Notes: generated by a model from the sequence alone, not told the origin. A stretch of DNA of 64,000 nucleotides from Escherichia coli (GCF_009931435.1 NZ_CP043414.1), one strand, 5' to 3'. Counted from the stretch's first letter, positions 9,759-19,668 are shown. A program made the numbers and translations.

Positions 9759-10330
9759 TGAAAATAATCGACATAAAGGCGATGAAATACCTGGAAGACG
9801 GGTCTGTTTCCTGTGAAGTGTTGTTTGGAGGGCGGGCTGATTATATTCCTTATCGTGCAGTGGAAAATGATTCTGCTGCATCAGGCCAGCGGGTATGGGG
9901 AACACTGATGAGCGGTGAGTTTGGTGAAATCATCCCCTTCACTGTAACAGCAGAGATGCTGGACAAAGAAAAAGAACTGAAAAAAGAGGAAATCAGGCGC
10001 TGGCGAACAGAACAGGAGGCGCAGCCGTTCACATTCGAATGGAACAGCAGCACATGGAATGGAGGAAAATCCTCACTGGAACGCTTATTCCCGGCAGTGA
10101 TGGCAGCAAAATCTGGTGTGGCACACAATGCCACAGTATGGAGTGATGCAAATAACCAACAAATTAAATTGTCACAACAAAAGCTGGAAGAACTACTTAC
10201 GGCAATGGTGCAGGCTCAGGCTGCACGCAACGATGAGATTTACCTGCGCCAGCGTGAGATGAAAAACACGCTGGCCACACTGAATAACATTGCTGCAATT
10301 AGGGCATTTCAGGTGGGCAAAGCAGAATGA
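9758..10330 (+). CDS. tail fibre assembly chaperone for fibre 2
   Basis: 190 aa starting MKIIDIKAMKY; ATG overlaps fibre 2 stop; coiled-coil-like C-terminus. Confidence 0.5.
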   Translation: MKIIDIKAMKYLEDGSVSCEVLFGGRADYIPYRAVENDSAASGQRVWGTLMSGEFGEIIPFTVTAEMLDKEKELKKEEIRRWRTEQEAQPFTFEWNSSTWNGGKSSLERLFPAVMAAKSGVAHNATVWSDANNQQIKLSQQKLEELLTAMVQAQAARNDEIYLRQREMKNTLATLNNIAAIRAFQVGKAE

Positions 10331-11040
10331 AATGGAAAGAGGTAATTTTACGTCCGTCTGCCATAAACATTAAATGTTCTGTGGTTTGTCTTCATCCGTG
10401 GTCAGAAAATACCGGAAACATCAAACCATCGGGGCGTTATCTCAGCCCCGAAAATGCTGTATCTGCACTTTTACCCTACCTGAAAGAAAGCACAGAAAAA
10501 GACATTGTGGCGCTGTTGTTTTGCGCTCCTTCTGCTGGCGAGTTTTTATCACTCGCCAGGCAATTTTCAGGCGCATTTCCATTGCCAGAGGTGGGGCGAA
10601 TGTCCCGCATGATTTCCAGTCAACTTTCACTGGCCATCAGCAGAATGCAAATCCCCGCCAGACCGGCAACATCACTTCCGGAACCGATAATGCTGTCGAC
10701 ACAGACCACTCGCAGCATGTCGCTGGCAGCAACCATTGCACAGGCAGCCACTCCTGCCGCCACATCACCGGAAACATTGTCATCATCGCTGCATCAGTTC
10801 ATGAATGCGAGAGATAAAGCCTTACAGGAAATCGCTGATCAGCAGGCCGCACTCCGGCAAAAAGTTTGCCCGGTGTGGCGCTTTTGCTACAAGGGAGCCC
10901 TTAGCCAGGCTGCAGTGCTGATACAAAAAAACATCCCACACCCCGAGTGGGTTTTTACAGCTGTGATGCTGTTCGTCGGCGATAATCTCTCATCACTAAG
11001 GGAAGCACTACATGACCCAGATGATTGTCCTTGCGCTTGA
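10327..11040 (+). CDS. hypothetical protein (Ser/Thr/Ala-rich)
   Basis: 237-aa ORF, ATGA-coupled to the upstream gene; no family recognised. Confidence 0.4.
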   Translation: MKWKEVILRPSAINIKCSVVCLHPWSENTGNIKPSGRYLSPENAVSALLPYLKESTEKDIVALLFCAPSAGEFLSLARQFSGAFPLPEVGRMSRMISSQLSLAISRMQIPARPATSLPEPIMLSTQTTRSMSLAATIAQAATPAATSPETLSSSLHQFMNARDKALQEIADQQAALRQKVCPVWRFCYKGALSQAAVLIQKNIPHPEWVFTAVMLFVGDNLSSLREALHDPDDCPCA

Positions 11041-11587
11041 CGGGGAAGCCATTCTGCTGCGTAACATCACCGTCAGCGCCACCATGCAACTACCGGACAA
11101 AGATATGTCCGGACAGTCAACCAGCACCACGAGCGCCCAGCAGGGAAACAAGGCTAAAGAGCTGCGCGTGTCGGGGGTTATTGATTTTAACGATGAAGCT
11201 ATTCTGACCCGTATTTTTCAGCTTGCGGAGGCAACAGAAAGCAACGGTGCTAAAAAAACATATCGCATTGCTAACGCTACCGCGAAGGCAATCAATATGC
11301 GACAGGGGGTGTTTTCTGGTGGCATTGATGCCACGGAACAACAGGGAAAAATGCACTGGCAGATCACCTTTACTCTCAGGGAAAAATTAAGCGTGCCAGA
11401 GAAAGCATCCGCACGCAGCGGTTCGCAGAAAACCATCGCCAGACAGCAGACCCAGAATGGCAGCGAACAGGTACCAGACAAAGGCATGAATACGCAAAGT
11501 TCGTTCTGGAAAAAAATCAATGATGCCGTTGGCTCTGGTCTGGATGCTGTTGGCATCGGGAGCGTGAAAGAGGAAGGGAAAACATGA
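11012..11587 (+). CDS. tail protein, possibly gpU-like
   Basis: 191 aa; segment LRVSGVIDFND...MHWQITFTLRE loosely resembles the P2 gpU family as I recall it; immediately 5' of a hub-like gene, matching P2 U-D order. Confidence 0.35.
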   Translation: MTQMIVLALDGEAILLRNITVSATMQLPDKDMSGQSTSTTSAQQGNKAKELRVSGVIDFNDEAILTRIFQLAEATESNGAKKTYRIANATAKAINMRQGVFSGGIDATEQQGKMHWQITFTLREKLSVPEKASARSGSQKTIARQQTQNGSEQVPDKGMNTQSSFWKKINDAVGSGLDAVGIGSVKEEGKT

Positions 11588-13281
11588 AATTGATACAACG
11601 CTGCATGATTAATGGCGAACGGGTGGAAATTGCCGATATAAGCCTTGTTCTTACCCTGAATGCTGCCGGTCGTGGCTTCATTTCTGTTAACAATCTGTCA
11701 CCCGAACACAGCCTTGCCGGCGCAATGGTACAAATTGATCTCGGCCGTGACGGTGAAGCATGGCGCTATTTCTCCGGCTACATTGAGCGCGATCAACCTG
11801 CTGAAAATGGCTCACGTCGCCTTTTTATTCGTGAAGCGGCTGCTGTGCTGGATTTTGATTTCCCTTGCTCCATGCAACACCCGACGTTGCGGGGGGTACT
11901 CGATAATCTGGGGCGACAAAGCGGTATCGTTTTTATCACTCCGGATGCGGATTATGCCAGTATACCAACTCCCTACATCACCCACAGCGGCAGCGGAGCA
12001 CAACTGCTCAGCCAACTGGGGCGAGCATTCAGTATCAGCGATTACGTCTGGCACCCTATGCCGGACGGTTCTGTATTTGTGGGAAGCGCAGCTGATTCAC
12101 GATTTGCCAGTATTACAATGCCGGATATTCCGCAACAGTACACACTCGGGCAAAGCGGCGGAAACAGCATCGACATCATGTTTATGGAAACTGTGCGACC
12201 GGGCGTGAACCTACCGGCCGGGCGCATTACCCGTGTAGCCCTCAACAACGAGAAAATGACCCTGACATGGGAGCGCCTTACCGCCACGGGTACCCCTGTT
12301 TCCAAATCACCATTACGCAGACAAATGGAAACACAGTTCCCAGAACTGGCCAGCGGTACGCTACATACCCGGCTGGCGCGCGTCATTGCGCCAACGGAGC
12401 CCACCACCCTGGGCGACGTGGCCGACAGTTTCCGCCCACGCTACGCCGTCGATGTGCAGTTGCTTGATGAGAACGGCAACGATAAAAGCGACACGCCCGT
12501 TTACCCGGCAGTACCGCTCCCCGTCCCCATGGCTGGCAGTGAGGCGGGATGTTTTGCCTACCCACCGGCAGGCACCATCGTGGAAATATCCAACATTGAA
12601 GGACGTCCGGACAAACCCGTTATCAGGCAAATCTTACCCGCTGGCCATAACCTGCCTGATGTAAAGCCCGGCGAACAGCTGCAGCAACAGCGCGCAGAAG
12701 TGTTTCAGCGCGTCACGACTGACGGAAGCTGGCACAGAGAAACCGATCAGCAAATCAGGGAGCATTCAGCCAGACGAACCATTAACAGCGATCAGGAAGA
12801 ACGCACAACAACAACCAGAACAACAACAGTACAGGCAAACGACATAACCAGCGTTCTGGGAACCAGCAAGCTGATGACAGGCCAGACAGAACACATTACT
12901 ACTGGTCATTATGCGATCGCAGCCGGTGAGCATATCCAGATGGTAGCGCAGGATTTGCTGACTAAACTCAAAGGGGCGACATCCACGATTGAGCGCGACC
13001 TTACTGAAAACGTGGGAGGCCGCAGAACATGCCGGGCGGACGGTGGTCTGGAGTTTACAGCCCCGACAGTATTTATTGGTCGCGGTGGCTCACGGGAAAA
13101 ATCCGGACTTAATCTGCTGACGTTGTTGATTGATATTCTGGATCTGGTTCAGTTGCTGGCCACACACACTGCAAACCACACCCACAGCAACACCGGCGCA
13201 CCAACAAACAACAGCGAACTTGCCGCAGACGCCAAACAGGCTACGAGCCTGCGCGAAAAATACGGTGACCTTATCGCCTGA
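11584..13281 (+). CDS. baseplate hub protein, gpD/gp27/VgrG-like
   Basis: 565 aa; N-terminal pattern ...ISLVLTLNAAGRGF...AMVQIDLGRDGEAWRYFSGYIER is typical of Phage_GPD/VgrG N-domains; Thr-rich stretch EERTTTTRTTTVQ; last gene of the tail operon. Confidence 0.5.
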   Translation: MKLIQRCMINGERVEIADISLVLTLNAAGRGFISVNNLSPEHSLAGAMVQIDLGRDGEAWRYFSGYIERDQPAENGSRRLFIREAAAVLDFDFPCSMQHPTLRGVLDNLGRQSGIVFITPDADYASIPTPYITHSGSGAQLLSQLGRAFSISDYVWHPMPDGSVFVGSAADSRFASITMPDIPQQYTLGQSGGNSIDIMFMETVRPGVNLPAGRITRVALNNEKMTLTWERLTATGTPVSKSPLRRQMETQFPELASGTLHTRLARVIAPTEPTTLGDVADSFRPRYAVDVQLLDENGNDKSDTPVYPAVPLPVPMAGSEAGCFAYPPAGTIVEISNIEGRPDKPVIRQILPAGHNLPDVKPGEQLQQQRAEVFQRVTTDGSWHRETDQQIREHSARRTINSDQEERTTTTRTTTVQANDITSVLGTSKLMTGQTEHITTGHYAIAAGEHIQMVAQDLLTKLKGATSTIERDLTENVGGRRTCRADGGLEFTAPTVFIGRGGSREKSGLNLLTLLIDILDLVQLLATHTANHTHSNTGAPTNNSELAADAKQATSLREKYGDLIA

Positions 13282-13880
13282 TCACCGGGCATACCCCCCC
13301 ATAAACGCCCATCACGCAACGCACGGCTCCGGTCGTGCGTTTTCATATCTGCCACCTGATTAATGCGTTCTGCGTGCCATTCTGGCGCTGTATGCGCACA
13401 CCGCGTAAACGGTGTGACGTAAAGCGTGAGGTGACGTAAACCGCGCTACCCCCTCCAACCCGCGGGTTTCGTGTCGAAACAGTTTTTCAGTTTTCTGCCG
13501 TGCAAAAATGACCGCCAGCCCGCGCAGCAACTGAGGGAAAAGCGAAGATCTGAAATTTCACGCTTTGAAATTTTTTGCAGTTTTCAAAGTGGTTTTTACG
13601 ATCGCACAAATGGCCGGAGCAATAAAACCGCATGATATTAAAAGAGTTTTCATACTTTACGCGAGACAAAAAAACGATCACGAAAGGATCGCATCAAACA
13701 GCCATCAAACAAAGAAGGCAGACACGGCGCGGCCTGCACAAAATTAAGCTCCAAAATAAAACTGAAAAAAAGGATCGCAACAAGAAGAAAAGCGCGTAAA
13801 ACGATCGCTGCTGATGTGGCGTTTCTTTATACAAGCTGCTATTTGCGATATGCTGAACACATCAACCTGTGGAGTGCATT

Positions 13881-14507
13881 ATGAAACGAAAATCAAAGTC
13901 TGCTGCCATTGCTGCTATTACTACAGCTCTGACAGCATCACTGGCTCCGGTGCCAGCTAAAAGCACGATACTACCAACAACAGTTATTGAATCCGCGACA
14001 CACGCCAGAGTGGTTTCAATGCTTACATTTGAGCATCATGATGGTCAGGTGTTTCTGCCTCTCGAAGAAGCTATTGAATATATCAACGGGCTGAATGACA
14101 ACATGCGCGCCGCGCTCAATGCAGTCATTGAAGAACGACAGAACAGAGGCAAGGGAGCACTGTTTACTGACAAAACCGCAAAAATCATAAAAATATGCGA
14201 AGAGTCAATTAAGCAGCACACCCGTGTTAAAGAGGCTGTCAAAATTGTAATGGATCCGGATAACCTGGCAAAAATGTATCCGGATAGCCTGGAGCAAAGA
14301 ATCGCCTATCGCAATAAACTGGTTCGTTTTGGTCGGGCAATTGCGCAGGGAGAGTTTATCGCTCGTGATGCCATCAACACCATCAAACGAAGCACCGCAC
14401 CAGACAAAACAACCAGCCTGGGCAATACGCTGTCTGACGGAAATGTGAAAGCAATGATTATTGCCGAGCATAAAAACATGGGACTCCCGGCACCGGAGTT
14501 TTCCTGA
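13881..14507 (+). CDS. hypothetical secreted protein (signal peptide)
   Basis: MKRKSKSAAIAAITTALTASLA-PVP has an n-region, h-region and A-x-A site; about 208 aa; stop overlaps the next ATG (TGATG). Confidence 0.5.
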   Translation: MKRKSKSAAIAAITTALTASLAPVPAKSTILPTTVIESATHARVVSMLTFEHHDGQVFLPLEEAIEYINGLNDNMRAALNAVIEERQNRGKGALFTDKTAKIIKICEESIKQHTRVKEAVKIVMDPDNLAKMYPDSLEQRIAYRNKLVRFGRAIAQGEFIARDAINTIKRSTAPDKTTSLGNTLSDGNVKAMIIAEHKNMGLPAPEFS

Positions 14508-14887
14508 TGGCAAGCAAAGTAAGCATTCATAAAGATGTTGAATACCAGGACATTGCAAAAGTTTACGGAAAGGCTCTGGAAAACTGGTTAAATACCGGTG
14601 TTCTCCCTGACAGATTCGGCAATGAAGGGCAGTGGGAAGATAACGCAAGATTATGTGGTTCGTTTGTATATAAATTACACATAAGACTACCGTCAGAACC
14701 ACCATGGAAGAAAAGCAAAGCCCAAATAGACAGAACTTCAAATATCTATCTGGTTTATACAAGGCACTGGATGGATTATGACAATATACAAATCATCAGC
14801 ATCATGGCCCCAGATGCTCACGAAAAAGCCAAAACTTCTTTCATGGCTGAACTGGAAAGACGGGCTGAAGAATTCCAGAACTCATAA
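14507..14887 (+). CDS. YafO-like toxin family protein
   Basis: 126 aa; GVLPDRFG, KLHIRL, IYLVYTRHW and a C-terminal AE..RRAEEF line up with E. coli YafO as recalled from memory (GVLPDTFG, HIHL, HLVY...). Confidence 0.5.
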   Translation: MASKVSIHKDVEYQDIAKVYGKALENWLNTGVLPDRFGNEGQWEDNARLCGSFVYKLHIRLPSEPPWKKSKAQIDRTSNIYLVYTRHWMDYDNIQIISIMAPDAHEKAKTSFMAELERRAEEFQNS

Positions 14888-14906
14888 ATTGCCTGATTTT
14901 CTCTCA

Positions 14907-14940
14907 GAAACCCGCAGCGTAAAAACTGTGGGTTTTCTTT
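14907..14940 (+). terminator. rho-independent terminator after the YafO-like gene
   Basis: gaaacccgcag...ctgtgggttt hairpin followed by TTTTTC. Confidence 0.5.
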
Positions 14941-15178
14941 TTGCTACCCTGATACGTGAGGGTAGCACTCAAAGTGAGGCAATATGTAGGCAACCTATTT
15001 AATACGTAAAAATTAATGCATTAAATGGATATTTACTAGCATGGGTACTGGCTTAAAATATCACAACCCTGTTTTATAACGTACTGAATTTATTAGGTGT
15101 GACGGTTTTCCAATGGGGCTTCCGACATTACGTTCAGCTGATGCTTTTCTTATGTAACGAGAAGACATATATTGGTAA

Positions 15179-15234
15179 GCGATGAAGCGATGAAGCGATG
15201 AAGCGATGAAGCGATGAAGCGATGAAGCGATGTA
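15179..15234. repeat. 8-bp tandem repeat (GCGATGAA) x6 plus one variant copy (GCGATGTA)
   Basis: Read directly: six perfect head-to-tail units then one variant, about 95 bp upstream of the ATPase gene start. Confidence 0.95.
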
Positions 15235-15251
15235 ACGTCTGTTTGGTTATA

Positions 15252-15296
15252 AACTTCACACTAATAATTTCTAAATGAAATTATTAGTGTGAAGTT
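15252..15296. promoter_or_regulatory. perfect 20-bp-arm inverted repeat (candidate operator or RNA hairpin) upstream of the ATPase gene
   Basis: aacttcacactaataatttc (15252-15271) / gaaattattagtgtgaagtt (15277-15296), 5-nt loop; 33 bp before the ATG at 15330. Confidence 0.6.
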
Positions 15297-15329
15297 GATG
15301 TTTATTGTGATTATAACTAAGGAATTAAA

Positions 15330-16799
15330 ATGAAATTATCTCCAGCAGAATTGAAGTTAGAAAGGGGTAAGGTTCAAGATAATAAATTCAATCAATATGT
15401 TAAACGTATCACATTAAAAAATGTCAGAGGGTTTGATGAGGAAATTGTGGAGTTTAAAACACCAGTTACAGCTCTTATCGGGACTAATGGTGGAGGGAAG
15501 TCGACTATATTAGGTGCTGTAGCTCTCGCTTATAAAAATGTTAAGCCAAGCAAGTTTTTCCCTAAATCATTTTATGGGGATGATTCAATGAGTGATTGGG
15601 AAATTGGATTCGAATTGATTGACAAGCCTATTTCAAAAGATAAAAATATTAACAGGACTGCAAAATTTAAACAGATGAAATGGCGCAGAGATAATTTCCC
15701 AGAGCGAAATGTTGTATATGTAGAAATACAAAGAACTGTTCCTGCAGGCGAACTAACTAAGTTTAATAAATTTTTATCTGGCGATGCTAAACAATTTGAA
15801 GAAAAAAATCTCAACCCTGAGACAATAAAATATTGCTCTGCCGTTTTAGATAAAAAGATAGAAGATTACAGATGTATAATAAATAAGCACGATCCATCTT
15901 CAAGAATGTTTGTAGGTAAGGCAATTAATGGTTCTGGTTATTCTCAGTTCCATTTTGGTGCAGGTGAAGCATCAATAATAGATACTATTGATAGAATAGA
16001 GACTGCTGCTGATAATTCTCTTGTTTTAATTGAAGAAATTGAAAATGGACTGCATCCTGTTGCAGTGCGGTTGTTTGTTAACTATTTGACAAATGTAGCA
16101 AAGAGGAAAAAGCTGCAAATAATATTTACAACACATTCGCAGGATGCAGTAAACGAGCTAGAGCCAGAAGCTGTTTGGGCTTCTATTAACAAAAAAGTAT
16201 GGAATGGTAAACTAAGTATTGAAAGTTTACGCGCTATAACGGGACAGAAGATAAATTCGAAAGTTATATATGTTGAAGATTCTTTTGCAAAAGAGTGGGT
16301 TGAAAATGCGATGGATCGATATATTCCAGAACTAGCCTCAACAATAAAAGTCTACACGGCAGGTGGTTACCCCAGCGTGGTTAAAGTAAGTCAATATCAT
16401 AATGAGAACCCTACTATAAATTATCCATCAATCGCATTAGTTGATGGGGATATTAAAGGTAGACCCGGAACTAAAGATCTGCCTGATAATGCAATGTTCA
16501 TCGGGGATGATTATCCTGACGCTACGGTTTTTCATTATATTGCAAATAACATAGAAGAAAATGCCTCAGTTTTGAGGCAAAGATGTTTGTTAACAAGATT
16601 TGACGCTGAAAAGATTAAATCGGAAGTTGAGAGTGTGATGCATTCTGCATGTGATCACCATGTTTATTTTACTAGATTAAGTGATAAATTAGATTTTGCC
16701 TCAGAACTATTCATTCGAGCTGGTATGATAGATTTATTTAATGAGAAAAATCCAGAATTTTGGTCCCCAATTATGGACTTCATTAAAAAAGGTCTATAG
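15330..16799 (+). CDS. ABC-type ATPase fused to a Toprim/DUF4435-like domain (OLD-family or fused-PARIS-like candidate defence nuclease)
   Basis: 489 aa; Walker A GTNGGGKST (K57), signature-like SGYSQFHFGAGEAS, Walker B LVLIEE (E235/E236), H-loop FTTHS; C-terminal VIYVED (E316) and ALVDGD (D372/D374) fit Toprim Glu and DxD; strongly AT-rich; own RBS and terminator. Confidence 0.6.
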   Translation: MKLSPAELKLERGKVQDNKFNQYVKRITLKNVRGFDEEIVEFKTPVTALIGTNGGGKSTILGAVALAYKNVKPSKFFPKSFYGDDSMSDWEIGFELIDKPISKDKNINRTAKFKQMKWRRDNFPERNVVYVEIQRTVPAGELTKFNKFLSGDAKQFEEKNLNPETIKYCSAVLDKKIEDYRCIINKHDPSSRMFVGKAINGSGYSQFHFGAGEASIIDTIDRIETAADNSLVLIEEIENGLHPVAVRLFVNYLTNVAKRKKLQIIFTTHSQDAVNELEPEAVWASINKKVWNGKLSIESLRAITGQKINSKVIYVEDSFAKEWVENAMDRYIPELASTIKVYTAGGYPSVVKVSQYHNENPTINYPSIALVDGDIKGRPGTKDLPDNAMFIGDDYPDATVFHYIANNIEENASVLRQRCLLTRFDAEKIKSEVESVMHSACDHHVYFTRLSDKLDFASELFIRAGMIDLFNEKNPEFWSPIMDFIKKGL

Positions 16800-16865
16800 T
16801 AATAATGCAAAAATATAATATTTAGTTTGCGATTTATATTTTTCATAATGAATTGTTGAGAAAAT

Positions 16866-16900
16866 AAGAGAGCATCGAAAATTGAGGCTCTCTTATTTTT
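16866..16900 (+). terminator. rho-independent terminator of the ATPase gene
   Basis: aagagagc (16866-16873) / gctctctt (16887-16894) stem followed by ATTTTT. Confidence 0.6.
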
Positions 16901-17082
16901 ATGAGATATCTCTAATGTATTAATCGTTTTATTTTGGTGCTACCACCACTGATGCTAACTTGTCGATCAGACATTCGCACTATTCAATATCTTTTAGGCT
17001 CCGCAATGAAAACGCCCCCGAAGGAACAATCCCCCGTCAATCGGTTGCCAAAGGCCATTTAGGTAAATCGCCTTCGAGGTCG

Positions 17083-17346
17083 TTCGATGGCTGCATGACG
17101 TTCCCGGTTATCCCGTCAAAGAAAATGCACTCGACCGGAAAACCAGAAGAACTAATGGCGGAGTTGGTCAGGACTGCGAATAGTGGCGGAACAGTCCTTG
17201 ATCCTTTTATGGGGCCAGGGACAACGGGTGTGGCTGCACTGAAAGCAGGGCGAAAATTTATTGGTATAGAGACCAGTGATCATTATTTTGAAGTAGCAGC
17301 ACAGCGACTTCGGGGGACTATTACCACAACCATTTCGACTACATAA
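17083..17346 (+). pseudogene. C-terminal fragment of a beta-class N6A/N4C DNA methyltransferase
   Basis: ...HSTGKPEELMAELVRTANSGGTVLDPFMGPGTTGVAALKAGRKFIGIETSDHYFEVAAQRL matches the AdoMet-binding FxGxG end of N6_N4 MTases; no DPPY-containing N-terminal part upstream. Confidence 0.6.
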
Positions 17347-17446
17347 GACAAAGCCCGCATTTTTGCGGGCTTGTATATCATTAGTGATGTGGACAGTTTG
17401 TGGATGTTTACAAGAAATAAGCTAATAGAAACAATTTGTTATCTTT

Positions 17447-17474
17447 ACAAAAAACGCGCCCGAAGGCGCGTTGG
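17447..17474 (-). terminator. raiA terminator
   Basis: aaaaaacgcgcc-cgaa-ggcgcgtt hairpin 3' of raiA (minus strand), T-run on the transcribed strand. Confidence 0.6.
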
Positions 17475-17495
17475 CGATACACTCAATATAAAGGA

Positions 17496-17891
<396 letters not shown>

Positions 17892-18028: not shown

Positions 18029-18808
18029 CTAAATCGCTTCAGTTTCACAACTAACAGAATAAAAAAACGGCAGCTCAAGGCTGTAATGCCAGTCAGTTAA
18101 GCAACTGACTGGCTCTTTTTCGGGGCTGTGGGGTATTTCCAGGGCCTCTCCTTTACCACTCTCGGGAAGGCCCTTTCCCTTCTTGTCGGTAATTTCACTG
18201 GCTGTCCCATACTTGCAAGATCGCGCATCAGCTCCGGTATACGTCCCGGTGAAGCGCATGGCGTCCGTCATCGACGTCAGCAGATGGCTGGTCAGTTCCA
18301 TCTGGCAGACCATTTTGACCTGCGGGTAGAGCGCCGGGTTCCCGGCATGTGTCTGGCGGGGGAAGGCTGCATCGTTCTCTGGTGTATCCGGTGTGCGCCA
18401 GAACACACCATCGATGGCCAGCAGGGTCAGGCTGCACCAGTGCGGATGCAGCGTGGCGTTATGCCAGAGCTGCGCTGTTTTCGTGAACACGCGGCGGACA
18501 GCCTCACTTCCCAGGCGCTGGCGGGCCTGAATAACGGCACTGGGGGCAACGAAGGGGCGATTGCCCGGCAGCATGATGTCCAGGCGATTCACAATCTGGT
18601 GAAGAGGTTCTTTACGCTCAAGCGCCATGCCAACAATACACCAGACCATCATTTCGAGGGGAAGACGGCGCTTGCGTAGCGTTACAGTACCTGATTCGGC
18701 AAGGCAACGAGAGATGAGTTCGGGGTCGAGGTAATCCCCCAGAAAAGTCAGTGGGTTACGCAGAGAATCGTAACGGGATACCAAATCAAGGGCCTGTCCA
18801 ATGAGCAT
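18029..18808 (-). pseudogene. IS4 transposase (InsG-like), internal deletion with frameshifted C-terminus
   Basis: First about 178 aa (MLIGQALDLVSRYDSLRNPLTFLGDYLDPELISRCLAESG...QVKMVCQMELTSHLLT) match IS4 transposase as I recall it; then the frame jumps to out-of-frame 3'-end sequence. Confidence 0.65.
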
Positions 18809-18930: not shown

Positions 18931-19668
18931 TTATGTATTGCTGCTGTTAGCAGCGATAATCTTCGCTACCTTTTCAGCTTGCGCATTCATCTGCATCTGA
19001 CGGTATGCATTTTCCATCAGCGGCAGCGCATCACGCGTAGCCTGGGTATCCGGATAGTCGCGCAACATGCCTTCTACGCGGTTAACGACAGCAACCCATG
19101 CACCACGTTCTGTATAATACTCGGCAACGGAGTATTCATATTTCGCCAGACGATCTTTCAGGAATACCAGACGTTTGGTGGCATCGGTGGTGTACTGACT
19201 GTTCGGATAGCCGCGCACCAGTTTGGAAAAGTCACTAAACGCAGCTCGTGCATGTTGAGGATCGCGATCGCTACGGTCAACGCCAAAGAACCCTTGCAGC
19301 GCACTGTCATCCAGCGCCATATTGGTCAGGCCACGCATGTACATGACATAATCGATATTCGGATGGGTCGGGTTAAGGCGAATAAAACGATCGATGGCAG
19401 CCTGTGCTAACGGCAAATCGGCGTTTTTATAGTAGGCGTAGATGAGATCCAGCTGCACCTGCTGCGAATACGGACCAAACGGATAGCGATTATCTAACGC
19501 TTCCAGTTGCGTTATTGCCTGTCTCCAGTTACCGTCCTGCAGCTTTTGTTGTGCAGTCGCGTAAATTTCATTTGGCGGATTATCAGGTACTTCTTCCTTT
19601 GACCCCGAGCAACCCGCCAAAAACAGGCTTAGTGTGGCGGCTGCCACCAGATATTTCATGCGCGTCAT
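18931..19668 (-). CDS. bamD: outer membrane protein assembly factor BamD
   Basis: 245 aa lipoprotein, signal + lipobox LAGCSG, TPR-like; recognised as E. coli BamD/YfiO. Confidence 0.95.

What the first reader, a model, noticed from the sequence alone, without database searches (positions are those of the whole stretch)
15179..15234. Perfect 8-bp tandem repeat array (GCGATGAA x6, +1 variant) immediately upstream of the candidate defence gene
Short tandem repeats of this kind are rare in E. coli intergenic DNA. Here one sits about 95-150 bp upstream of the ATPase/Toprim gene start. Such arrays can vary in copy number by slipped-strand mispairing and change promoter spacing (phase variation), or act as iterated binding sites. 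The 8-bp unit rules out an in-frame coding repeat.
Basis: seen in the sequence. Interest (0 to 1): 0.55.

Follow-up and report, generated by a model that had tools for sequence, protein, structure and literature searches.

The report
Hypervariable 8-bp repeat before defence gene
A perfect 8-base tandem repeat just upstream of a prophage-borne anti-phage nuclease gene (HEC-04) is real and changes copy number (4 to 16) between otherwise identical E. coli genomes, so it is a mutational hot spot that may tune expression of a toxic defence gene, though that effect is untested.

Summary
Window 15177-15232 is (AAGCGATG)x7, 100% perfect, and is the only strong tandem repeat in 64 kb. It ends 98 bp before the ATG (15330) of a 489-aa ABC-ATPase/TOPRIM protein. 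That protein is a full-length member of the validated single-gene defence family HEC-04, which is toxic when induced.

The cassette lies at a prophage/chromosome junction next to raiA. It occurs in 16 of 5,426 complete E. coli genomes, always with the array.

Across 28 E. coli genomes and contigs the copy number is 4-16, with 11 alleles. Loci identical over 2,475 bp of flank differ: {7,8,9}, {8,9,10}, {9,13,14}, {4,10}. The tract is therefore hypermutable, which fits slipped-strand mispairing.

Salmonella orthologues (93-94% aa) carry one degenerate copy at the homologous spot, and more distant homologues have no array. It is a recent E. coli-lineage expansion.

- **Excluded:** a coding repeat, and spacing change between the -35 and -10 promoter hexamers (the tract is 32-128 bp).
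- **Unlikely:** a stable operator array.
- **Unresolved:** whether the tract lies upstream of the promoter or inside the 5' leader, which contains a 20-bp hairpin and a uORF.

Best reading (about 0.45): a heritable, reversible expression rheostat. A neutral VNTR is nearly as likely (about 0.40).

The parts
14907..14936 (+). Intrinsic terminator after the yafO-like toxin gene. It marks the start of the segment shared with the right ends of P2-like prophages (14908-15050).
   Evidence: Terminator scan. Homology to the P2-like ends L007, L010 and L017 starts at 14908.
15032..15059 (+). Promoter-like site P_up (TTTACT-16-TAAAAT). It straddles the left junction of the cassette (about 15050-15053).
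   Evidence: Junction placed. Not conserved in Salmonella.
15060..15105 (.). Conserved upstream block with an imperfect inverted repeat, ATCACAACC ... GGTGTGACGG. The same TGTGAYGG/CCRTCACA motif occurs 8 times in 260 bp upstream of the Salmonella orthologue.
   Evidence: Alignments and motif counts.
15145..15173 (+). Promoter-like site P_mid (TTTTCT-17-TATATT). Its -10 ends 3 bp before the array, and a -10-like hexamer (TATCTT) sits at the same position in Salmonella-type loci. If this site is used, the array forms the first bases of the mRNA.
   Evidence: Position-weight scans. Weak -35.
15177..15232 (+). The finding: a perfect octanucleotide tandem array, (AAGCGATG)x7. Copy number is hypervariable (4-16) among E. 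coli genomes.
15252..15296 (.). Perfect palindrome with 20-bp arms and a 5-nt loop, followed by GATGTTTATT. It scores as terminator-like. It also contains promoter-like site P_pal (TTCACA-18-TGaAATTAT, 15255-15284). As RNA it forms a 20-bp hairpin, extended by an outer stem (15243-15252 / 15311-15320) that touches the SD.
   Evidence: (MFE -48.8 kcal/mol, z = -5.3). Invariant in all E. coli loci.
15298..15333 (+). Upstream ORF MFIVIITKELK. Its TGA overlaps the main ATG (ATGA). Frame and overlap are kept in Salmonella (MIKTKGLK). The main gene's SD, TAAGGA, is at 15318-15323.
   Evidence: Translation itself is inferred.
15330..16799 (+). HEC-04-family defence gene (ABC ATPase fused to a TOPRIM nuclease, 489 aa). 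AT-rich (GC 0.30-0.39).
   Evidence: PADLOC HEC-04 match, E = 6e-204 over residues 2-488. Pfam AAA_15/AAA_21/AAA_23. Invariant K57, E316, D372 and D374. RefSeq name 'ATP-dependent nuclease'. Composition.
17047..17346 (+). N-terminally truncated DNA methyltransferase fragment. It is 90% identical to the last 260 bp of the com-linked methyltransferase of P2-like prophages, which suggests the cassette replaced or interrupted that module.
17496..17837 (-). raiA, the first chromosomal gene. It is the constant right-hand neighbour of the cassette in E. coli and in Salmonella.

Best explanation
The tract is a hypermutable simple-sequence repeat. Its 8-base units gain and lose copies by slipped-strand mispairing. 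Loops of 8 nt are too large for MutS-dependent mismatch repair, so this happens even in repair-proficient E. coli.

The tract lies inside the private 277-bp regulatory region of a horizontally acquired defence cassette (15053-15329). On one side is a conserved upstream block. On the other is a 20-bp palindrome/hairpin, a short upstream ORF and the SD.

Each 8-bp step changes one of two things. It changes the distance and helical phase between the upstream block and the proximal promoter (array at about -60 to -115 if P_pal is used). Or it changes the length of the 5' leader ahead of the hairpin (if P_mid or P_up is used). I infer that this makes HEC-04 expression a heritable but reversible quantitative trait, a 'rheostat' rather than an on/off switch. 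A clone would then hold cells with different trade-offs between phage protection and the toxicity of this nuclease.

- **Shown:** the tract, its hypervariability, its recent origin, the identity of the gene and the architecture of the region.
- **Inferred:** slippage as the mechanism, any effect on expression, and any adaptive value.
For: 1. The array is perfect and unique in the window.
2. There are 11 alleles (4-16 copies) in 28 E. coli genomes.
3. Loci with zero differences in 2,475 bp of flank carry {7,8,9}, {8,8,9,9,10}, {13,13,13,9,9,9,14,9} and {10,4} copies. That is at least 7 length changes on branches with no substitution. The apparently clonal pair ETEC1717/ETEC1718 differs by one unit.
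4. Variant units have themselves been amplified: AAGAGATG is x1 in L002 and x3 in L003. This fits slippage.
5. The rest of the 300-bp regulatory region is almost invariant, and the gene is at least 99.6% identical in all carriers.
6. The array is a lineage-specific expansion of a single degenerate copy: ggtAAGAGAGAAAATGATGtaag in five Salmonella-type loci and ggtAAGGTGATGgtg in L144.
7. The gene belongs to HEC-04. That family protects against T4 and T5, needs its Walker A and TOPRIM residues, and was too toxic to induce (bioRxiv 10.1101/2024.01.29.577857). Such a gene has the cost/benefit profile for which variable expression pays.
8. There is precedent for intergenic repeats with 3-7-bp units acting as rheostats: H. 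influenzae hmw (PMC12721329) and M. gallisepticum vlhA (abstract).
9. No collapsed allele (fewer than 4 copies) was seen among the E. coli loci.
Against: - No expression data exist. The three promoter-like sites are weak (9/12 matches or less) and none is convincingly conserved between E. coli and Salmonella. Even the position of the tract relative to the TSS is unknown.
- The allele distribution is broad and unimodal (mode 9), with no preference for helical phase or frame. A neutral stepwise-mutation process would give the same pattern.
- The Salmonella orthologue does without the array.
- The array RNA has no strong pairing partner, so the hmw hairpin mechanism does not transfer directly.
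- All E. coli carriers are very closely related, so 'always at least 4 copies' may reflect a young age rather than selection.
- Some copy-number calls come from long-read assemblies and could be off by a unit.
Confidence: 0.45

Rival explanations
1. Neutral VNTR. The octamer tract is a selfish mutational by-product. A chance duplication passed the slippage threshold and now drifts in length with no meaningful effect on HEC-04 expression or fitness, like the intergenic or prophage VNTRs used for MLVA typing of E. coli and Salmonella.
For: - Broad unimodal allele spectrum (4-16, mode 9) with no phase or frame preference.
- The orthologue in Salmonella and more distant homologues function without any array.
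- No conserved promoter element can be tied to the tract, and no RNA partner was found.
- The carriers are recent relatives, so persistence needs no selection.
Against: The tract lies in the only regulatory DNA of a toxic gene, 20 bp from a palindrome that overlaps the best proximal promoter candidate. Inserting 32-128 bp there is unlikely to be silent. No collapsed alleles were seen in 28 loci. Neither argument is decisive.
Confidence: 0.4
2. Leader-translation model. The array is transcribed (from P_mid or P_up) and acts as a ribosome landing pad. Every unit carries an AUG that opens a 3-codon ORF (AUG AAG CGA UGA), and each stop overlaps the next AUG (AUGA). The last or penultimate AUG opens an ORF that runs through the left arm of the 20-bp hairpin. 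Copy number would then set how often ribosomes melt a hairpin that otherwise terminates transcription, is cut by RNase III, or masks the SD.
For: - Chain of ORFs: MKR x5, then MKRCNVCLVINFTLIISK (15222-15278), MKLLV (15275-15292) and MFIVIITKELK (15298-15333), the last ending in ATGA on the main start.
- In the other E. coli haplotype group a different frame still crosses the left arm (sequence).
- The last uORF keeps its frame and its overlap with the main start in Salmonella.
- The hairpin plus outer stem touches the SD.
- A -10-like hexamer is positionally conserved just before the array.
Against: - The array AUGs have no convincing SD.
- Two of three frames being open for 13 codons in AT-rich DNA is expected by chance (about 0.4 per frame, my estimate).
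- The main gene has its own good SD.
- The TSS is unknown, and Salmonella lacks the array.
Confidence: 0.08
3. Iterated binding sites. The octamers are a head-to-tail operator array for a DNA-binding protein, by analogy with MetJ on tandem 8-bp metboxes or the omega repressor on 7-bp heptads (both from my own knowledge).
For: Precedents exist for proteins that coat tandem 7-8-bp units. The unit sequence is kept pure, with few variants.
Against: - Copy number varies freely from 4 to 16, whereas operator arrays are normally fixed.
- The unit is non-palindromic.
- No regulator gene lies in the cassette.
- The array is absent from the Salmonella orthologue, which keeps the rest of the region.
- Purity is explained by fast slippage alone.
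Confidence: 0.05
4. Sequencing or assembly artefact, or a coding repeat on the minus strand.
For: Short-read assemblies break inside the tract (L084, L125, L126). The minus strand is open in all frames across the array.
Against: The same perfect array, always differing by whole units, appears in more than 25 independent assemblies, including complete genomes. The minus-strand ORF is 25-84 aa, has no SD, starts with GTG, and changes its C-terminus with copy number, while alleles occupy all three frames.
Confidence: 0.01

Closest known systems
Haemophilus influenzae hmw1A/hmw2A heptanucleotide repeat (ATCTTTC)n
   Same: A perfect intergenic repeat with a unit that is not a multiple of three, lying just upstream of a gene. 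Many alleles occur in nature, and the effect on expression is graded ('rheostat') rather than on/off. A long RNA hairpin is present in the leader (PMC12721329).
   Different: In hmw the repeat itself forms one arm of the hairpin, with a G-rich partner, and RNase III processing is required. Here the array has no strong partner and the 20-bp hairpin is a separate palindrome downstream. The unit is 8 bp rather than 7, the host is E. coli, and the gene is an anti-phage nuclease rather than an adhesin. An effect on expression has not been shown here.
Promoter-upstream repeats: Neisseria meningitidis nadA (TAAA)n and Mycoplasma gallisepticum vlhA (GAA)n
   Same: The repeat lies upstream of the core promoter. 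Changes in length alter the spacing or phasing between upstream elements and RNA polymerase (vlhA abstract; nadA from my own knowledge). This corresponds to the P_pal scenario, with the array at about -60 to -115.
   Different: Those tracts have known partner regulators or a strict permissive length. Here no regulator is identified and no preferred length or phase is seen.
Phase-variable restriction-modification and other defence genes (phasevarions; Pgl/BREX homopolymer tracts)
   Same: Localized hypermutation is attached to an anti-phage system whose expression is costly.
   Different: Those repeats lie inside the coding sequence and switch it on or off by frameshift. This one is intergenic. 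E. coli phase variation as reviewed is inversion- or methylation-based (PMC11868660).
MLVA-type VNTR loci of E. coli and Salmonella (some of them in prophages)
   Same: Short-unit tandem repeats that differ in copy number between close relatives. Most have no known function (my own knowledge).
   Different: This tract has an 8-bp unit, is not in the searchable literature, and lies in the regulatory region of a validated toxic defence gene.
HEC-04 / IbfA ATPase-TOPRIM defence proteins (for the downstream gene)
   Same: Full-length HMM match and conserved catalytic residues. The family is validated against T4 and T5, and IbfA of IncI1 plasmids is a relative (PMC12111858).
   Different: Neither paper reports a repeat tract upstream of the gene. 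16 distant homologues and 3 closer ones have none.

Membership tests
SSR contingency locus (localized hypermutation) | Uninterrupted tandem repeat of a short unit | tested here: met
   7.0 perfect copies of an 8-bp unit. 4-16 copies, mostly pure, in other genomes.
SSR contingency locus (localized hypermutation) | Copy number changes far faster than point substitution in the surrounding DNA | tested here: met
   At least 7 length changes among loci with 0 differences in 2,475 bp of flank. The rate per generation was not measured.
SSR contingency locus (localized hypermutation) | Changes are reversible (both gains and losses) | tested here: inconclusive
   Alleles lie both above and below the modal 9 within single flank haplotypes, which implies both directions. 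No ancestral state is known.
SSR contingency locus (localized hypermutation) | Repeat lies in the ORF, promoter or 5' leader of the controlled gene | tested here: met
   98-153 bp upstream of the ATG, inside the cassette's own 277-bp regulatory region and downstream of a terminator. Whether it lies upstream or downstream of the TSS is unresolved.
SSR contingency locus (localized hypermutation) | Copy number alters expression or phenotype | not testable with these tools
   Needs reporter fusions, phage assays and TSS mapping.
hmw-type 5'-UTR repeat/RNase III element | Repeat forms one arm of a long RNA hairpin | tested here: not met
   In the MFE fold the array is essentially unpaired. The best duplex with the rest of the transcript, -25.5 kcal/mol, lies within the range of random controls, whose minimum is -31.1.
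hmw-type 5'-UTR repeat/RNase III element | Long double-stranded RNA element in the leader | tested here: met
   A perfect 20-bp stem at 15252-15296. This holds only if the region is transcribed, which was not tested.
Operator / iteron array | Fixed number of sites, conserved with the gene, and a cognate DNA-binding protein nearby | tested here: not met
   4-16 copies. Absent from Salmonella orthologues. No regulator gene in the cassette.
Classical promoter-spacer phase variation (-35/-10 spacing) | Repeat lies between the -35 and -10 hexamers | tested here: not met
   The tract is 32-128 bp long, far more than a 16-18-bp spacer.
Coding repeat | Open reading frame across the array that belongs to a real gene, with unit or allele lengths that keep the frame | tested here: not met
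   The + strand has TGA in all frames. The - strand ORF is 25-84 aa with no SD. Alleles occupy all three residues mod 3.
HEC-04 defence family (downstream gene) | Full-length similarity to the family profile | tested here: met
   PDLC04149 HEC-04, E = 6e-204, residues 2-488 on profile positions 5-488 of 494.
HEC-04 defence family (downstream gene) | Walker A lysine and TOPRIM acidic residues (K62, E319, D375, D377 in the tested protein) | tested here: met
   K57, E316, D372 and D374 are invariant in a 21-sequence alignment. Their equivalence to the published residues is inferred from position.
HEC-04 defence family (downstream gene) | Confers phage resistance | not testable with these tools
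   Shown for another family member only.

The most novel reading that the evidence does not exclude
E. coli, usually regarded as lacking repeat-based contingency loci, carries one. A mismatch-repair-blind octanucleotide tract makes expression of a toxic, prophage-associated ATPase-TOPRIM nuclease (HEC-04) stochastically heritable. Clonal populations would then hedge between protection from phages and the cost of self-damage. The tract may act through the 5' leader (mini-ORF relay, or a 20-bp hairpin that terminates transcription or is cut by RNase III) rather than through promoter geometry.
Probability: 0.3. Interest if true: 0.75.

Novelty: new member of a known kind. Interest (0 to 1): 0.52.

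Why it matters
If copy number tunes HEC-04, this would be a repeat-driven contingency locus in E. coli attached to an anti-phage system. It would link two fields: localized hypermutation, and the cost and regulation of defence systems. It would also give a simple genetic handle (4 to 16 units) for studying how bacteria manage the toxicity of abortive-infection-type nucleases.

Two practical points follow:
- The tract is a fast molecular clock. It separates isolates that are identical over kilobases, such as ETEC1716, ETEC1717 and ETEC1718.
- It breaks short-read assemblies at this locus.

If it is neutral, it is still a clean natural example of a long-unit repeat that escapes mismatch repair in E. 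coli.

Tried and rejected
- **Rfam scan** of 14400-17600 at E <= 1: only sub-threshold chance hits, none on the array or the hairpin.
- **BLAST of 14900-15500** against phage and plasmid collections: only the short terminator segment matches P2-like phages. The array and cassette are absent.
- **Exact-pattern scan of IMG/VR:** one prophage contig with 9 copies, the same locus.
- **Exact-pattern scan of metagenomes:** 89 contigs with at least 3 copies. Only L084 is this locus. The rest are unrelated environmental octamer arrays, some inside long ORFs.
- **Upstream regions of homologues:** 16 distant homologues (genome contigs) and 3 homologues at 76-78% identity have no comparable repeat, so there is no convergent evolution of repeats in the family.
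- **RNA partner for the array:** none beyond random expectation.
- **Promoter footprinting** across E. coli, Salmonella and L144: inconclusive.
- **Ogr-type TGT-N12-ACA late-promoter motif, LexA box and CRP site** near the array: no match on inspection of the sequence. No tool was used.
- **Minus-strand phase-variable ORF:** rejected.
- **Literature search** for the repeat sequence on both strands: no paper.
- **Helical-phase or mod-3 preference** among alleles: none.

Full report
**1. Observation**

The sequence at window 15177-15232 reads (AAGCGATG)x7 without a single mismatch. Tandem Repeats Finder gives period 8, 7.0 copies, 100% matches and score 112. No other array in the 64-kb window scores above 48. 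The array ends 98 bp before the ATG at 15330 of a 489-aa ORF.

**2. Surroundings**

RefSeq annotation of a near-identical locus (ETEC1717), together with my own ORF and family scans, gives the following layout:

| Window coordinates | Feature |
|---|---|
| 1-13281 | Tail and baseplate genes of a prophage |
| 13869-14507 | 212-aa gene |
| 14507-14887 | yafO-like toxin |
| 14907-14936 | Intrinsic terminator |
| 15177-15232 | The repeat |
| 15330-16799 | The 489-aa gene |
| 17047-17346 | N-terminally truncated DNA methyltransferase fragment |
| 17496-17837 (-) | raiA |
| 18931-19668 (-) | bamD |

The 489-aa protein matches the PADLOC model HEC-04 end to end (E = 6e-204). It has the ABC-type ATPase domains in Pfam. 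K57, E316, D372 and D374 are invariant across 21 relatives.

HEC-04 is an ATPase fused to a TOPRIM nuclease. It protects E. coli against T4 and T5 and needs its Walker A and metal-binding residues. In the original study it was not induced 'due to apparent toxicity' (bioRxiv 10.1101/2024.01.29.577857). IbfA of IncI1 plasmids is a relative (PMC12111858).

The gene and its upstream region are AT-rich (GC 0.28-0.39) against flanks of 0.45-0.55. This is a foreign cassette.

**3. Distribution and cassette limits**

The gene occurs in 16 of 5,426 complete E. coli genomes, at 99.6% identity or more. It is always next to raiA and always carries the array.

The left neighbour differs between loci. It is this prophage with yafO in L001-L006 and L124. 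It is a P2-like end, ogr-hok, in L007-L009. It is ogr-hok-TM2-com-methyltransferase in L010-L016.

A P2-like prophage integrated elsewhere (L017) shares only window 14908-15050. Homology with the Salmonella orthologue starts at 15053. The cassette's own regulatory DNA is therefore about 15053-15329.

The truncated methyltransferase after the gene is 90% identical to the last 260 bp of the com-linked methyltransferase of the P2-like prophages. This suggests the cassette replaced or interrupted that module.

**4. The repeat is hypervariable**

I counted units in 28 distinct E. coli genomes and contigs:

| Copies | 4 | 5 | 7 | 8 | 9 | 10 | 11 | 13 | 14 | 15 | 16 |
|---|---|---|---|---|---|---|---|---|---|---|---|
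| Genomes | 1 | 1 | 3 | 3 | 8 | 3 | 2 | 4 | 1 | 1 | 1 |

- The remaining ~300 bp of intergenic DNA is almost invariant.
- With the array masked, 2,475 bp of flank fall into 13 haplotypes. Within single haplotypes (zero differences) the copy numbers are {7,8,9}, {8,8,9,9,10}, {13,13,13,9,9,9,14,9} and {10,4}. That is at least seven length changes on branches with no substitution.
- ETEC1717 and ETEC1718 have chromosome lengths within 255 bp of each other and the locus at the same coordinate. They differ by one unit.
- Variant units have themselves been amplified: AAGAGATG is x1 in L002 and x3 in L003.
- Short-read assemblies end inside the tract (L084, L125, L126).

All of this is the signature of slipped-strand mispairing. 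From established knowledge, MutS-dependent repair does not correct loops larger than about 4 nt. This would explain why an octamer tract is unstable in a repair-proficient species.

**5. Origin**

Five Salmonella-type loci (93-94% aa identity, also next to raiA) keep the surrounding region. At the homologous spot they read ggtAAGAGAGAAAATGATGtaagttctgtt, or a close variant, with no array. A 78%-identical homologue in the classical P2 defence hot spot between gpA and the portal gene reads ggtAAGGTGATGgtgctgttt.

Sixteen more distant homologues, and two others at 76-77% identity, have no comparable repeat upstream. The array is thus a recent E. coli-lineage expansion, not a family trait. Repeats have not evolved convergently upstream of this gene family.

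**6. What the tract is not**

- **Not coding.** The + strand has TGA in all frames. The - strand ORF is 25-84 aa depending on copy number, starts with GTG and has no SD. Alleles fall in all three frames.
- **Not a -35/-10 spacer.** The tract is 32-128 bp long.
- **Unlikely to be an operator array.** The number of units is free, the unit is non-palindromic, the cassette has no regulator gene, and the Salmonella orthologue lacks the array.
- **Not a known RNA family**.
- **Not in the searchable literature**.

**7. Anatomy of the regulatory region**

- *Upstream of the tract:* a conserved block with an imperfect inverted repeat, ATCACAACC...GGTGTGACGG (15060-15105). Its motif is reiterated eight times upstream of the Salmonella gene.
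- *Downstream of the tract:* a perfect palindrome with 20-bp arms (15252-15296), invariant in E. coli. It scores both as terminator-like and as containing a promoter-like site, TTCACA-18-TGaAATTAT.
- *As RNA:* the palindrome is a 20-bp hairpin extended by an outer stem (15243-15252 / 15311-15320) that reaches the SD. The 186-nt fold has MFE -48.8 kcal/mol and z = -5.3.
- *Upstream ORF:* an 11-codon ORF (15298-15333) ends in ATGA on the main start codon. It keeps that frame and overlap in Salmonella.

Three sigma-70-like candidates exist:

| Candidate | Coordinates | Note |
|---|---|---|
| P_up | 15032-15059 | Straddles the cassette junction |
| P_mid | 15145-15173 | Its -10 is positionally conserved as TATCTT in Salmonella; the array would be the first bases of the mRNA |
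| P_pal | 15255-15284 | The array would lie at about -60 to -115 |

None is strong or clearly conserved. I could not decide whether the tract is promoter-upstream DNA or leader RNA.

**8. Mechanism**

The best-supported explanation has two parts.

The first part I hold at about 0.95. The tract is a slippage-prone hypermutable repeat.

The second part I hold at about 0.45. Because it lies in the only regulatory DNA of a toxic defence gene, each 8-bp step alters one of two things. It alters the spacing and helical phase between the upstream block and the proximal promoter. Or it alters the length of the leader ahead of the hairpin. Either way HEC-04 expression would become a heritable, reversible, graded trait.

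Known precedents are the hmw heptamer tract of H. influenzae and promoter-upstream tracts such as vlhA and nadA. In hmw, expression falls as the repeat number rises and the tract is part of the 5' UTR (PMC12721329; vlhA abstract). The hmw mechanism itself does not transfer, because here the array has no pairing partner and the hairpin is a separate element.

A variant of the model uses the chain of AUGA-coupled mini-ORFs in the array, which leads through the hairpin to the uORF. It is attractive but statistically unremarkable in AT-rich DNA.

The main rival (about 0.40) is a neutral VNTR. The allele spectrum is unimodal with no phase preference, the Salmonella gene works without the tract, and all carriers are recent relatives.

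**9. Verdict**

The regulatory interpretation is plausible but untested, and its 'promoter spacing' wording needs correcting.

In kind this is a new member of a known class: an intergenic simple-sequence repeat upstream of a gene under fluctuating selection. It is unusual for its host (E. coli phase variation as reviewed is inversion- or methylation-based; PMC11868660), for its 8-bp unit, and for the controlled gene. Interest is moderate (0.52). It would rise to about 0.75 if copy number is shown to tune defence or toxicity.

Noticed in passing
L137 1719-1985 (also L153-L156, about 2050-2320); window 15060-15105: The octamer TGTGAYGG / CCRTCACA is reiterated in both orientations upstream of the Salmonella orthologue: 8 strict copies in 260 bp, plus 9- and 11-bp periodic runs. 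Only one strict copy and three TCACA/TGTGA half-motifs remain in E. coli, two of them in the palindrome arms. It looks like a protein-binding platform (integrase arm sites? regulator?). The binder is unknown.
   Followed up: partly
window 15273-15284 and 15328-15339; 15085-15105 versus 15276-15296: The 12-mer AAATGAAATTAT at the loop and right arm of the palindrome is identical to the sequence around the main start codon. The right arm (TGAAATTATTAGTGTGAAGTT) also resembles the upstream block (TGAATTTATTAGGTGTGACGGTT). The palindrome may have arisen by inverted duplication of local sequence. Its left arm is complementary to the translation start region.
   Followed up: partly
window 18029-18808 (-): About 820 bp of extra DNA lies between raiA and bamD, relative to L001. 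It holds a 259-aa ORF whose residues 25-180 match the IS4-family transposase model (NF033592, E = 3e-34), so it is probably a truncated IS. L011, L012 and L136 carry a full IS4 at the same spot.
   Followed up: partly
window 13869-14507 and 14507-14887: A 126-aa YafO-family toxin gene is preceded by an overlapping 212-aa gene that RefSeq names 'iron-sulfur cluster assembly scaffold protein SufA' in some genomes and 'hypothetical' in others. The 212-aa protein has no NCBIfam or PADLOC hit. The SufA name looks like a misannotation of a possible antitoxin.
   Followed up: no
window 17047-17346; L010 2689-2948: The methyltransferase fragment after the nuclease gene is 90% identical to the 3' end of the complete com-linked methyltransferase that lies upstream of the cassette in type-C loci. 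Those loci therefore carry the 3' end twice. This is a footprint of how the cassette entered.
   Followed up: partly
L148-L151 (start of contig), L138-L143, L137 (end of contig): Hundreds of Salmonella draft assemblies break inside the orthologous nuclease gene at fixed points: codon 14 in one set, around codon 183 in another, and codon 367 in a third. This suggests an insertion element or a repeated sequence that disrupts or duplicates part of the gene in several serovars.
   Followed up: no
L019-L107 (metagenome contigs): Soil and freshwater contigs hold arrays of related, degenerate octamers (GAAGCGAT, GAGGCGAT, GAAACGAT, GATACGAT, GAAGGGTT and others). Several are followed by an inverted copy (gcttcaac) that could form a hairpin. 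Some sit inside long ORFs and others are intergenic. They are unrelated to the E. coli locus by flank, and it is unclear whether they form a family.
   Followed up: partly
L144 2501-3976: A 78%-identical HEC-04 homologue sits in the classical P2 defence hot spot between the replication gene gpA and the portal and terminase genes. The family therefore uses at least two different cargo positions of P2-like phages.
   Followed up: no
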